A stretch of DNA of 64,000 bases, taken from Octopus vulgaris. Its lineage: Eukaryota. Within the stretch, counting starts at the first letter, position 1. Each line of letters begins with the position of its first letter. Positions 5,860-39,868 of the stretch are shown here, in pieces. Under the pieces are notes generated by a model that was not told the DNA's origin, searched no databases, and worked only from the letters and a program-made list of their open reading frames with translations. A program made the position numbers and the translations under genes. The stretch spans positions 44,764,001 through 44,828,000 of the forward strand of contig OX597814.1 of assembly GCA_951406725.2 (NCBI GenBank), in the 5' to 3' direction.

Positions 5860-6780
5860 GTGGTGTAGAAGATATGTCTGAGATTCTGCAAAAGCAATAC
5901 TGCTCCACTTTCAGCAATCCAAGTATAATTAATCCTCACAGCATCGGTGAAACAAACACCGACACACTATCCGATATGTGATTTGGTACCTTCGGTATCA
6001 TAGTAGCTATTAACAAAATTACAAACAACTCAGCTGTAGGCTCCGACATGTTTCCCGTAAGAGTCATGAAGAAGTGCCACCATCAACTGGCATTCCCTCT
6101 GCTTATACTTCGGAGGAAATCACTAGACTGGTAATATTCCCAATGATTTACTATCCTGGTTGACTATCCCAGTTTTCGACGATGTTGACCACAGCACCCT
6201 CTTAAAGAAACTATAGAACATTGATGTCTTAAGAAAATTATTAAGGTGGATTGGGTGTTTTCTGGTCAACAGAACCCAGTATGTGGTGATAGATGGTGTT
6301 CGATCAAGTTCGACAAGAGTCATCACTGGAGTCTGACAAGACAATGTATTGTACCCACTCGTTTTCATTAGTTACATCAATGACATCATTCACGTCATCA
6401 AAGATAGCAGCATTTGAATTTTCGGGAATGACCCTAAGCTTCTTTACGTTGTCGACAGGGCAGCAAACCGAACTTATCCCGAATTGGATCTCTTATCCAA
6501 TGGGCGGAATAAAACACAATATGCAGCTAAACCAGAATAAGTTTGGATTAATTATTCGGCAAAGTGGGGCACTTAAACAACAATACGTTCTTCTCTCTGA
6601 TGAAAACTTCGGGACTGTAAACACCGTTAGGGATCCATGAATAACTCTCAACAACAACCTCAATTTGAGTGGCCAAACAACGAAGTCGACATGGCCCGCA
6701 TGGGCTTGCTCCTGGATTCTAAGGATCTTTTAATCTAGAGATGCTCCCATTTAATAAAACATCATCTTTTCCTATTCTGG
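5860..6780 (+). pseudogene. CR1/Jockey-group LINE ORF2 (RT) remnant
   Basis: Fragments LQKQYCSTFSNP, GSDMFPVRVMKKC..QLAFPL, FDDVDHSTLLKKL, QYVVIDG, NNMQLNQNKF, VRDP; heavily deleted and frameshifted. Confidence 0.75.
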
Positions 6781-6851
6781 TCGAAACTTATCTAAGTATC
6801 GTCTATGTGTATTGTGTGCGTCTATGTGTGTGAATAAAAGGCACATATAAT

Positions 6852-6958: not shown

Positions 6959-7008
<50 letters not shown>

Positions 7009-7031
7009 AATATAATATGTGACAATTATTC

Positions 7032-7069
<38 letters not shown>

Positions 7070-7200
7070 TATCTGAGAGGCACCACCATGCCGAAATAGC
7101 AGTCAAAACCCTGACTCTAAAAACCACCTAAAACGTTCATATCGCACCATGAGATAAGACAGGGGGACAAAATAAACTAGCAAAAAGAGTTTACTGGATA

Positions 7201-7258
7201 ATTCAAGATCCTGGATTTCTAGCTTTGCTTCAAATAGCTGTGCTTTGGTCAGTTGAAT
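7201..7258 (-). ncRNA. Degenerate hammerhead motif in the left arm (core CUGACCA)
   Basis: Minus strand AUUCAA-CUGACCA-...-GAAA-UCCAGGA-UC-UUGAAU; G8 is substituted. Confidence 0.55.
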
Positions 7259-7465
7259 ATACCAGATAGGCACATAAATACAAATATATATATAAAGAAC
7301 ATACGTTATACTTACATATACGAACGTCCAAACATACATATATATGCACGTATGTACACGGCCAGTCCAAATTGCCCCGCCAACCACCTTATATATACGT
7401 TCGTATATGTAAGTATAACGTATGTTCTTTATATATATATTTGTATTTATGTGCCTATCTGGTAT

Positions 7466-7524
7466 ATTCAACTGACGAAAGCAGAGCTTATTTGAAGCAA
7501 AGCTAGAAATCCAGAATCTTGAAT
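7466..7524 (+). ncRNA. Hammerhead motif in the right arm
   Basis: AUUCAA-CUGACGA-AAGC..[GCUU/AAGC]..GCUA-GAAA-UCCAGAA-UC-UUGAAU: 6-bp stem I and intact core, but mismatches at 10.1-11.1 and in stem III. Confidence 0.62.
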
Positions 7525-7759
7525 TATCCAGTAAAATCTTTTTGCTAGTTTATTTTGTCCCTTTGTCTTATCTCATGGTGCGATATGAACGTTTTAGGTG
7601 GTTTTTATAGTCAGGGTTTTGACTGCTATTTCGGTATGGTGGTGTCTCACAGATACCCTTATTTATAGTTGTAAAAAAAATTATTACCTTTGTATGGTAT
7701 TTATTCCCATGCTGGCCACTTGATAATATTGATATTTAAATATCGATATTATCCTTATT

Positions 7760-7796
<37 letters not shown>

Positions 7797-20260: not shown

Positions 20261-21880
20261 AACATCAACTAAATAACAAAATCAAAGAGAGGTTATCTTC
20301 ATTACTTAGGAAAATAACCAGAGATTATGATAGAAAGAGAATCCAACAAGATCTAGAAAGTCATACATGAAAGAATTTGAAATGGTGAAGACACGCCAGA
20401 TTAAGAAGTTTATAAAACTCATAGGTCAGAGAATGAAGGCTGAAGTCCAATCACCCACCTGTGAAAGCAGTAATTAATGTAAGTAGCCGACATGTAGACA
20501 GCTCTGAAGAAGCAGTATTAAACAAAGGTCTCAAATTTGCGACAACCATTAAGCGCATTCCATGCTTGGACATAATAGCCCCTGTTGAAGAGATAGCCGT
20601 AAAGATACCAAGAGCTCAGGCAGATGAAGGTGGAAAGTGAGACAGGTACTAGAAAAAGCAAAACTACGCAAACTAAACATCACTAAGGAAGAAACATTCG
20701 CTAACAAAAAACTACAAAGTGAAAATTCCATCATAATATTTCCAGCAGAGAAGGGAAATGCTACAGTGGTGATAAACATGTCTGACTACTCGGAAAAACT
20801 GCCAAGTCTTAGAAGTGATGGTAGCTTTAAAATCAGAGGGGAAGTTGTCACAAATCTTGATCAAGAACAAGGATCACTTTTCTCTAAAGAAGTACAGACA
20901 AGTGACTCAACACTACAGTAAACTACCGCACACGTACGGTCTTCCTAAGATTCACAAGGATGGTATTCCATTAAGACCTATAGTGAGCAGCTGTAGAGGT
21001 TTAGCATGCCATCCACTGCGCCATTTCCTTGTGCATATAATCAGTACATTAGCAGGAAAGTCAACATCGTACGTAAAGAATTCCACCCACTTCACAGAAT
21101 TGATAAAGGATACCCCCATTGAATCCAACCAGATGGTGAGTCTAGATGTTCATCAAAGTCCCAACTGGTGAAGCACTATCGGTGATTCAAGAAAACCTAG
21201 TGACAGACACCCATCTAAAAGAACGCACTAGTATACCAATAAGAAACTTGATGTTTACCTGTGTAGAAACTACCTACTTCAGTATGGACGCTGATATATA
21301 TCGACAAGAAGAGAGTTTAGCTGGGATTTGATGGGCTTAGCTAAACCCTCTTCTTGTCGATATATAATTATCGATATATATCACCGATAATAGGCAATAT
21401 ATACATAGAATACTTTGAGTATTTAGCTTTAGGATCAACACCGCTAAAACCAACCCTATTGCTGCGATATGTTGATGCCACCTTCATACTCTGGCCCCGC
21501 CAGGAAGATGTTCAAGTGCTGTAAGATCATGTGAATTCAGTAAAGCCATCCATTAAGTTCGCAATTGAAAAAGAAAAAGACGATCAGCTAGGATTCCTGG
21601 ACATATTATTAACATGCACCAAGTTTGGATTCAGGATATCCGTATACCGCAAGCCGACTTTCACTGGACGATACCTCAACTTCAACTCCCACCATCCATA
21701 CAGTGTAAAGAGAGGGATTGCTCACTGCCTATAACATCGAGCAATGAATATAAGTAGCGATCGTGATACCCACCACGAAAATATGATCAAGATCAATAAC
21801 AGTCTATTAAGCAACAACTTCCCCCAAAACATACTATTCACTCCAATTATGAAGAAGATATGGGATGAAACCAATAAACT
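20230..21880 (+). pseudogene. Penelope-like element reverse transcriptase, decayed
   Basis: LNKGLKFA, IIIFPAEKGNATVV, YGLPKIHKDGIPLRPIVS, SYVKNS, LRYVDATF, IKFAIEKEKDDQLGFLDILL, SVYRKPTFTGRYLNFNSHHP are characteristic PLE RT/thumb motifs; frameshifts and stops. Confidence 0.93.
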
Positions 21881-23290: not shown

Positions 23291-23321
23291 TCAAAAATTC
23301 AGATAGCCTGCCAAGCTACTC

Positions 23322-23360
23322 CAGACTGATGAAGAGCAATGACTCTGAAACTAGTCTCTG
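23322..23360 (+). ncRNA. Minimal Penelope-type type I hammerhead ribozyme
   Basis: CAGA-CUGAUGA-AGAG(CAAUGA)CUCU-GAAA-CUAG-UC-UCUG: all core nucleotides present, 4-bp stems I and II, palindromic CUAG loop in stem III, GUC cleavage; same strand as the upstream PLE RT. Confidence 0.9.
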
Positions 23361-23526
23361 ATTGTTGGCTTTATTGGATGGAGGTACTTATCTCCCCTGT
23401 TTGAAATCTTAAGGACACAGAGCGCTTGTGTCACATAGTATACGGTATACTTGGGGCTAAATAGCAGTAGCATTCTTCCCTTTCCTGGGTCTTCCATATT
23501 AATTTGGCAACAAACCATCTCTTTAT

Positions 23527-38603: not shown

Positions 38604-39868
38604 CGAGGGACGTTCAATAAGTAATGCCCCTGACTCACTTGCGTTTGTTTGATCTAGCTGAAATTTTGCATGTGCACTTATTTATACCTCTATAAATTAA
38701 GTGGCGAATTACAGCTCTAATTGTGGTTTCTGATTTACAGGTGTTTGAACTGAGTCAAGTGTGAAATGGAGCCTGTTGAGTGTCGAGCAGTGATCTGGTT
38801 TTTGTATTTGAAAGGACGCACACCACGGGAGACTTTTGATGAAATGAATGTAACTTATGGTGATGATGCCCCATCATATGACCTTGTAAAACGCTGGCAT
38901 TGTGAATTCAAACATTGTCGGAATTATGTGGAAACAGCTCCCAGATCTGGTCGTCCCCTTCTGCCGTTGATGAGACGTCTGTCCGTCAAGTTGAGGCTGC
39001 CATTTTTGAAGGTCAACGCATAACTATTCGCCAAATAGCCCATAAGGTCAAGATTAGTACCGGGTCTGTGGAAACTATCATTCATGACCATTTGCATATG
39101 CAAAAGGTGTCTGCCAGATGGATTTCCAGGTTGCTCACACCTTTCCAGAAGCAAGAACGCGTTGAGTGCTCGAGGATGAATTTGGAGATGTGCCAAGAAG
39201 ATGAGTCAAAATTTTTCAAAAGACTGATCACACAGGATGAAACCTGTGTCCATCACTATGATCCATAGACCAAAGCCCAGTCAATGCAGTGAAAGCACCG
39301 TGACTGACCTCCTCCAAAGAAGGCAAGGGTGCAGCCCTCCGCTGACAAGGTTATGCTCACAGTCTTCTGGGACCAGGACGGAGTAGTGATGACAGATTTA
39401 CTGGCAAAGGGTACCACAATTACAGCAGCCTATTATGCTTCACTTTTGAGGAAATTAAGAGGAGCTATCAAAATCAAGAGGCGGGGCAAGATCAGCAAAG
39501 GCATCCTCCTCCTGCAGGACAACGCTCCGGTCCACAACTCGCGTGTCGCCAGATCAGAAGCACAGGCGTGCAGCTATGAACTCCTCCCCTTGCACCCTCT
39601 GATTTTCACCTCTTCCCAGCCATGAAGTTGATTTTGAAAGGAAAGCGTTTCCCAGATGATGCAGCCTTGATTTCTGAAGTCACGTCGTGGTTGGAGGACC
39701 AAGCTGGGGTCTTCTACAAAAACGGTCTCCAGAGCTGTATCAAACGATGGGAGAAATGCATAACTCTGGGTAGTTCCTATGTAGGAAAAGACTAATAACT
39801 GTGCCAAGTGTCGTTGCTCTACTGCTATGGGAAGTGGGTCAGGGGCATTACTTATTGAACGCCCCTAG
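38604..39868 (+). mobile_element. Full-length mariner transposon (1265 bp) with TIRs and a TA duplication
   Basis: TA|CGAGGGACGTTCAATAAGTAATGCCCCTGAC ... GTCAGGGGCATTACTTATTGAACGCCCCTAG|TA. Confidence 0.96.
38766..39795 (+). pseudogene. Mariner D,D34D-type transposase, inactivated
   Basis: KVSARWISRLLT, ITQDETCVHHYDP, KVMLTVFWD, LLQDNAPVH, LAPSDFHLF; frameshift near 38955, stops, and deletion of the HPPYSPD motif. Confidence 0.93.

What the first reader, a model, noticed from the sequence alone, without database searches (positions are those of the whole stretch)
7069..7656. Palindromic element with hammerhead motifs of both polarities in each arm
Seen: each 260-bp arm has an inner, outward-reading HHR (7201-7258 minus, 7466-7524 plus). 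Each also has an outer, inward-reading HHR-like motif (7069-7110: CUGAGA-GGCA/UGCC-GAAA-UAGCAG-UC, mirrored at 7616-7656). Inference: cleavage at both sites would release a 414-nt, largely hairpin RNA from either strand (7105-7518, or 7620-7207), which recalls ambisense viroid-like or retrozyme RNAs. Caveat: the outer cores have 6 nt rather than 7 and a weak stem I, and each inner copy has defects, so this copy may be dead. Inverted pLTR formation by Penelope elements is the simpler explanation.
Basis: partly seen in the sequence, partly recalled or inferred. Interest (0 to 1): 0.75.

Follow-up and report, generated by a model that had tools for sequence, protein, structure and literature searches.

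The report
Back-to-back retrozyme insertion; one real hammerhead
The palindrome is two back-to-back partial copies of a common 487-base jumping repeat, likely pasted in one step by a Penelope-type enzyme; one of its two self-cutting-RNA motifs is conserved across related repeats, while the opposite-strand one is probably a look-alike, so a viroid-like two-way RNA is unlikely.

Summary
The 270-bp inverted repeat and all four motifs lie where stated. They are not one unit: they are two 5'-truncated copies of a dispersed, circularly permuted 487-bp non-coding repeat (family A; hundreds to thousands of copies), joined head to head in (TA)n. The 'spacer' is more of the left copy. Of 81 position-sampled loci, 48 have such a junction, at variable points, and 33 are single arms; 40 of 49 junctions pair a short with a long fixed 3' end, as do 6 of 6 inverted insertions of a protein-coding Penelope-like element. 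The inner type I hammerhead keeps core and helices, with compensatory changes, in four sister families; cleavage is untested. The outer motif has a 6-nt core, almost no stems I or III, a stem II that is perfect in 7 genomic matches against 437 mismatched, overlaps a conserved hairpin, and is lost in all three sister families; it is, however, rare in shuffles (1-8 of 3000). The 414-nt product is unlikely: both minus-strand cores are mutated and arm pairing masks the plus-strand inner ribozyme. Verdict: new member of the known retrozyme/Penelope class. The scan noted the same two-end pattern before, on other DNA of this genome.

The parts
7035..7066 (.). (TA)n target tract at the 3' end of the left copy
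   Evidence: sequence
7067..7393 (-). Left copy of family A: unit positions 57 to about 383-392, ending at the short 3' end (E1); 93% identical to the consensus
7073..7104 (+). Outer hammerhead look-alike, antisense to the element: 6-nt core, stem II perfect only through a substitution at 7080; overlaps the hairpin just before E1
7201..7258 (-). Inner type I hammerhead of the left copy, broken: G8C at 7247 and a 1-nt deletion in stem II
7328..7393 (-). Apparent 'spacer': unit 57-121, present only in the left copy
7394..7396 (.). 3-nt junction where the two 5' ends meet
7397..7764 (+). Right copy of family A: unit 122-487, ending at the long 3' end (E2); 95% identical to the consensus
7466..7524 (+). 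Inner type I hammerhead of the right copy: core intact, stem III mismatch at 7515, predicted cut after 7518; extra A before GAAA as in the family consensus
7621..7652 (-). Outer look-alike in the right copy, core CUGUGA (A6U at 7649), stem II mismatched
7668..7764 (+). About 95-nt 'tail' between E1 and E2, with hairpins and an 18-nt motif shared by sister families
7765..7795 (.). (TA)n target tract at the 3' end of the right copy
   Evidence: sequence

Best explanation
The palindrome is one insertion of a non-coding, hammerhead-bearing 487-bp repeat (retrozyme type) into a TA microsatellite, likely made when a Penelope-like protein primed cDNA from both nicked target strands at two fixed start points, giving two truncated copies joined head to head; the outer 'antisense hammerhead' is probably a chance look-alike on the back of a conserved hairpin. 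Shown here: dispersed family, circularly permuted unit, two fixed 3' ends, variable 5' ends, short/long pairing of inverted arms, the same pattern in a protein-coding element, conserved sense hammerhead fold. Inferred: trans-mobilisation by a Penelope-like RT/endonuclease, priming from both strands, one source RNA (circular or multimeric) for both arms, dimer-assisted self-cleavage in source elements. This copy is probably dead as a ribozyme cassette.
For: Family: 2395 first-look candidates (not a copy number), 437 exact matches to one 24-mer, 2245 to the shared tail 18-mer. Unit 487 bp, copies run through the unit end into the next unit, no ORF found attached. 81 loci behind the first 100 listed matches: 48 with a head-to-head junction, 33 single; of 49 junctions 40 E1/E2, 1 E1/E1, 8 with an internal end, 4 of these at unit 458-459. 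Sister families: B 9 E1/E2 of 12 head-to-head junctions, C 15 of 16. 899-aa element: 6 of 6 chosen inverted insertions E1/E2. Arms of one insertion are closer to each other than the median to other copies in 16 of 16 family-A cases; the window arms share 9 non-consensus bases. Inner core kept in A 47 of 61, B 28 of 34, C 10 of 12; helices 93-97% paired in parsed copies, with stem I pair states A-U (A), U-A (C), C-G (D) and distal stem II U-A (A) versus A-U (C, D). Outer motif: 0 of 42 B and 0 of 37 C; D core reads CUAAGAGA in 29 of 37, C has GCC for GUC in 30 of 37; structure 60% paired, 404 of 500 shuffles as high; competing hairpin 90% paired, its variable pair G-U 26, G-C 24, A-U 6, unpaired 1 of 57 parsed when read on the sense strand. 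Literature: inverted 5'-truncated copies, optional tail and (TA)n bias in PLEs (PMC8557442); opposite-strand HHR pairs 100-700 bp apart (PMC4209133); both target strands cut and extended, two internal RT starts bounding the tail (PMC11167929).
Against: No autonomous parent with a homologous terminal repeat was found among 30+20 GIY-YIG loci and 30 loci of the 899-aa family. The tail is about 95 nt, not 30-40. In vitro PAc showed no difference in RT start between strands, so the short/long rule is not explained by that work. Exceptions: L316 (E1/E1) and L139 (E2 with an arm 13 nt short of E2). Arm kinship is weak in family B. No 5'-end peak at the predicted cut (5 of 38, p 0.40); Rfam does not recognise the inner motif, which has an extra A before GAAA in A, C and D. 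For the outer motif: rare in shuffles and its 12 core positions vary 1.9% in family A, with 231 of 10000 base-matched sets as conserved (the inner core scored 1577 of 10000, so the test does not discriminate well). Covariation counts reflect a few events between related families, not many independent ones.
Confidence: 0.85

Rival explanations
1. Family A is an ambisense retrozyme: a weak second hammerhead arose on the antisense strand of the 487-nt unit and would process minus-strand multimers, as in ribozyme-bearing viroids.
For: Core-like string kept in 62-64 of 77-78 A copies; 1-8 of 3000 shuffles give the motif; core positions free of common variants.
Against: No 7-nt core in 0 of 78; stem II mismatched 437 to 7; stem I probability 0.0000 and CUGA held in a hairpin (P 0.38 and 0.999 in the two commonest variants); lost in B, C, D; sense strand folds far better than antisense in A (z -8.0 against -3.3); no held paper with 'CUGAGA' and hammerhead.
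Confidence: 0.04
2. The palindrome itself is a functional cassette that releases a 414-nt hairpin RNA from either strand.
For: Coordinates add up to 414 on both strands; the product would be 72% paired.
Against: Symmetry is forced by any inversion of the unit; spans between mirrored outer motifs are 101-433 bp in 15 pairs against 568 here (read); only 5-6 of 81 loci have whole inner HHRs on both strands (the script rule missed L006); minus-strand cores are mutated; inner-right helices have P 0.0 once the left arm is transcribed.
Confidence: 0.01
3. The inversion arose at DNA level (fold-back or template switch during repair or second-strand synthesis), not by priming from both target strands.
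For: Arms share derived bases, which fold-back also predicts; junction gaps and overlaps are short.
Against: Each arm holds sequence the other lacks (left unit 57-121, right 393-487); arms end at two different fixed ends in TA tracts in 40 of 49 junctions. A switch onto a longer cDNA followed by trimming at E1 is not excluded.
Confidence: 0.07
4. The copies are solo terminal repeats of an autonomous Penelope-like element rather than a separate non-autonomous retrozyme.
For: Same end structure as coding elements; Xenopus retrozymes are homologous to pLTRs (bioRxiv 10.64898/2026.07.22.740005).
Against: Copies longer than one unit continue into the next unit, not into an ORF; no ORF-linked copy seen.
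Confidence: 0.03

Closest known systems
Metazoan non-LTR retrozymes (Cervera and de la Pena 2020, PMC7229834: passages and section 14 read; review PMC7761336: passages; Li, Clavereau, Pollet 2026, bioRxiv 10.64898/2026.07.22.740005: parts 1-3 of 5 read)
   Same: Non-coding unit with one type I hammerhead, low GC, self-paired sense fold, copies longer than one unit, coexistence with Penelope-like elements.
   Different: 487 nt, above the 170-400 nt of tested circles but within the 51-972 bp consensus range; mostly dispersed truncated and inverted copies, two same-strand HHRs in only 4 of 47 loci; cleavage and circles untested here.
EN+ Penelope-like elements and their inverted pLTR structures (Craig et al. 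2021, PMC8557442: passages; Cervera and de la Pena 2014, PMC4209133: parts 1-2 of 4; PAc study PMC11167929: section 3 read whole)
   Same: 5' truncation, partial tandems, adjacent inverted copy, optional tail between two 3' ends, (TA)n targets, HHR with near-palindromic stem III, opposite-strand HHR pairs.
   Different: No ORF; no sequence-related parent found; tail about 95 nt; near-strict short/long pairing of arms, which I did not find stated in the passages read or searches.
Ribozyme-bearing viroids and viroid-like circular RNAs with ribozymes in both polarities (search listing and abstract starts; passage in PMC7761336)
   Same: Size range, hairpin-rich fold, a hammerhead motif.
   Different: DNA-encoded and spread by retrotransposition; the second-polarity motif fails structure and conservation tests; no evidence of RNA-RNA replication.
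LINE-1 twin priming (recalled; only a search listing seen)
   Same: Inversion made by priming from both target strands.
   Different: There the inverted and direct parts do not overlap; here 270 bp are duplicated and each arm has its own fixed 3' end.

Membership tests
Metazoan non-LTR retrozyme | Type I hammerhead motif in a short non-coding unit | tested here: met
   Rfam miss and extra A before GAAA noted
Metazoan non-LTR retrozyme | Tandem or more-than-unit organisation | tested here: met
   pieces up to 829 bp (A) and 1112 bp (B); two same-strand HHRs in 4 of 47 A loci; no long array seen
Metazoan non-LTR retrozyme | No protein-coding region | tested here: met
   no ORF attached in the loci scanned
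Metazoan non-LTR retrozyme | Stable self-paired fold of the monomer | tested here: met
   circular sense fold -148 kcal/mol, 69% paired, z -8.0 against 25 base shuffles
Metazoan non-LTR retrozyme | Self-cleavage and circular RNA in vivo | not testable with these tools
   only assembled contigs of runs guessed to be RNA were offered
Penelope-like element (autonomous) | RT plus GIY-YIG ORF | tested here: not met
   none in the element; so it is not an autonomous PLE
Penelope-like element (insertion signature) | 5' truncation, inverted adjacent copy, two 3' ends with optional tail, microsatellite target | tested here: met
Penelope-like element (insertion signature) | Terminal repeat homologous to an autonomous element of the same genome | tested here: inconclusive
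   not found in the loci examined, a small part of 6136 and 17697 candidates
Ambisense viroid-like RNA | Well-formed ribozyme in both polarities of one unit | tested here: not met
Ambisense viroid-like RNA | Conserved unit with fixed boundaries | tested here: not met
   palindrome span and junction vary
Ambisense viroid-like RNA | RNA-to-RNA replication, both strands present as circles | not testable with these tools
   no stranded raw reads offered

The most novel reading that the evidence does not exclude
Family A is a genome-encoded retrozyme that has newly evolved a second, 6-nt-core hammerhead on its antisense strand, making it an animal retroelement with ribozymes in both polarities and a living intermediate between retrozymes and viroids.
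Probability: 0.04. Interest if true: 0.85.

Novelty: new member of a known kind. Interest (0 to 1): 0.25.

Why it matters
As judged most likely it is ordinary in kind: one more retrozyme family moved by Penelope-type machinery. What is useful is the footprint: the near-strict pairing of a short and a long 3' end in inverted insertions (40 of 49 junctions, 1 same-end) is a testable constraint on how Penelope enzymes make inverted repeats, which Craig et al. list as an open point, and it supports the proposed Penelope-retrozyme partnership. It also warns that opposite-strand hammerhead pairs in such genomes are an insertion by-product. If the outer motif did cleave, it would be the first ambisense genomic retrozyme known to me and would bear on viroid origins.

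Tried and rejected
Rfam scans: no hammerhead family in 20 matches on 7000-7750; whole-window list showed 150 of 237, all low-complexity-type. Sequencing runs: no RNA holder listed on record; four guessed-RNA contig sets hold short family pieces but show no strand, ends or circle; no contig bridged the window junction in four runs; none of this is used as evidence. Search for the parent element: PF01541 loci and the 899-aa family have other terminal repeats; A-D-like pieces there (L072/L091, L107, L201) look like separate insertions into flanking TA tracts. A three-family alignment was not structurally in register and was not used for pair counts; families were parsed separately and 12 A plus 5 D rows counted. 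The stem I probabilities for the inner motifs used wrong coordinates; one search replaces them. 5'-end enrichment at the cut site: not found. My first idea that outer 'stem II' is a sense-strand G-U hairpin was dropped: it does not hold in family C. Look-ups of earlier notes by sequence found nothing relevant. Two papers were not held (PMC5850863, PMC5785218), so hammerhead variants described there, and all supplements, were not seen; they may bear on whether a 6-nt core or the extra A is tolerated.

Full report
1. Observation. The window is AT-rich, microsatellite-laden DNA from a 2.8-Gb animal genome. The longest inverted repeat in it is the one reported. Local alignment gives arms 7058-7327 and 7397-7667 with one indel. 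The four motifs are present; cuts after 7104 and 7518 (plus) or 7621 and 7207 (minus) give 414 nt. In this copy the plus strand has outer core CUGAGA and inner core CUGACGA with a stem III mismatch; the minus strand has outer CUGUGA and inner CUGACCA, both with a conserved core base changed. Rfam finds no hammerhead here.

2. It is a repeat family. A DNA search of the own genome with the left arm gave 2395 candidates, 40 scored, full-length hits 88-95% identical. Alignment of 28 of the 30 fetched loci gave a 487-bp unit that is circularly permuted: copies run through its end into its start. On the inner-hammerhead strand copies end at two fixed places in TA tracts, E1 (unit about 392-398) and E2 (unit end), while 5' ends scatter. 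The window is left copy unit 57 to E1, inverted, then 3 nt, then right copy unit 122 to E2. So the arms are the overlap of two truncated copies and the spacer is the part only the left copy reached.

3. Unit or by-product? I took all 81 loci behind the first 100 listed of 437 exact matches to a family 24-mer. 48 have a head-to-head junction and 33 a single arm at my thresholds; of 49 junctions 40 join an E1 arm to an E2 arm, 1 is E1/E1, 8 have an internal end. Mirrored outer motifs lie 101-433 bp apart in 15 pairs of that list, against 568 here (read). Whole inner hammerheads on both strands occur in 5 loci by the script rule, 6 with L006 which it missed. Sister families B and C show the same pairing (9 of 12 and 15 of 16 head-to-head junctions; their queries fixed one arm near E2). 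Six inverted insertions of a young 899-aa element, chosen as likely inversions, all pair its short with its long end. That protein has no Pfam hit, 21% identity to the RT of a 781-aa RT/GIY-YIG element (E 0.005) and Atlas neighbours carrying RVT_1 or HTH_animal; 'Hydra-like' and 'Neptune-like' are my inferred labels, with no tree built. The two arms of an insertion are closer than the median to other copies in 16 of 16 family-A cases, with 9 shared non-consensus bases in the window; the signal is weak in B.

4. Which hammerhead is real? Three sister families were pulled from flanks: B (477 bp), C (491 bp, 76% to A), D. The inner core is kept in A 47 of 61, B 28 of 34, C 10 of 12; 7 of 10 D copies parsed; parsed copies are 93-97% paired, with different pair types between families in stems I and II and a near-palindromic stem III. 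On 12 A and 5 D rows, 96.9% of cells pair and 15 cells change on both sides, 0 of 500 shuffles, a control that relatedness inflates. A, C and D carry an extra A before GAAA; B is canonical; activity is untested. The outer motif is complete in 64 of 78 A copies but 0 of 42 B and 0 of 37 C; D reads CUAAGAGA in 29 of 37, C has GCC for GUC in 30 of 37. Its structure is 60% paired on 16 A plus 16 C rows, no better than shuffles. The perfect stem II is a rare variant, 7 against 437. Its CUGA lies in a 7-bp hairpin just before E1 (90% paired); G5 is a loop base that varies between families, and the variable stem pair is G-U, G-C or A-U on the sense strand in 56 of 57 parsed A copies, while G-U becomes A-C on the antisense strand. 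Predicted stem I probability is 0.0000. In its favour: the relaxed motif appears in only 8 of 3000 unit shuffles, 1 with three stem II pairs, and its core positions are a little more conserved than matched sets (231 of 10000; the inner core gave 1577). The pattern was chosen after the fact, the same pattern has two other hits in the window, and the positions overlap structure next to a reverse-transcription start, so I read this as coincidence plus sense-strand constraint. Perreault et al. report low activity for changes around A6-N7 (PMC3088659, passages); no held paper contains 'CUGAGA' with hammerhead.

5. The 414-nt product. It needs the doubtful outer motif, and the inner-right helices have probability 0.0 in transcripts that include the left arm (equilibrium folding). 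The minus-strand route has two mutated cores. RNA data on offer were contigs only and say nothing either way.

6. Mechanism. Inferred: source elements are transcribed as multimers or circles; a Penelope-like protein binds the structured tail, nicks both strands of a TA tract and primes cDNA at E1 on one strand and E2 on the other; both cDNAs stop early and are joined at their truncated ends. Basis: PAc protein cuts and extends both strands, starts internally at two sites bounding the tail and is predicted to be a dimer (PMC11167929, section 3); inverted 5'-truncated copies and tails are typical of PLEs (PMC8557442, passages); opposite-strand HHR pairs 100-700 bp apart were noted in 2014 (PMC4209133); retrozymes are proposed non-autonomous PLE derivatives. 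Not shown: the partner enzyme (not found), cleavage, circles. No 5'-end peak at the cut was seen, in line with PAc, where cleavage was not needed for insertion.

7. Novelty. A new member of a known kind. The short/long pairing was not found in print in three searches, but earlier notes of this scan describe it for other repeats of this genome; I had stated that reading before seeing them, and they are not independent support. Interest 0.25.

Noticed in passing
window 23318-23370 (+), core at 23326: A separate minimal hammerhead-like motif with a 7-nt core, 4-bp stem II, palindromic ACUAGU stem III and 4-bp stem I, about 1.5 kb downstream of a decayed Penelope-like RT; possibly its terminal repeat.
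   Followed up: no
window 20709-21860 (+): Broken Penelope-like RT fragments, 23-38% identical to the 781-aa protein, best E 1e-15.
   Followed up: partly
window 38906-39625 (+): Two ORF pieces that look like a split mariner-type transposase (recalled resemblance).
   Followed up: no
window 6000-6800: Decayed LINE-like RT sequence just upstream of the TA tract (recalled resemblance).
   Followed up: no
L023:1906-2265 / L031:1469-1801: A family-B copy sits inside the AT-rich tail hairpin of a family-A copy, with an apparent 9-bp duplication, suggesting the tail itself is an endonuclease target.
   Followed up: no
L091-L107 (e.g. L102:1939-5300): Young intact 781-aa RT/GIY-YIG element, many near-identical copies, ends in (TA)n; its 3' repeat has a hammerhead-like motif with a U3-A8 core.
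   Followed up: partly
L196-L231 (e.g. L226:1735-5170): Very young 899-aa element, roughly 100 of 150 scored matches identical over 133 aa, with its own hammerhead and two 3' ends about 155 nt apart; missed by Pfam.
   Followed up: partly
L091:5540-5991: A fifth related family, 76-78% identical to B, also as a head-to-head insertion.
   Followed up: no
inner hammerhead of families A, C, D: A conserved extra A between stem II and GAAA, absent in B; effect on cleavage unknown.
   Followed up: partly
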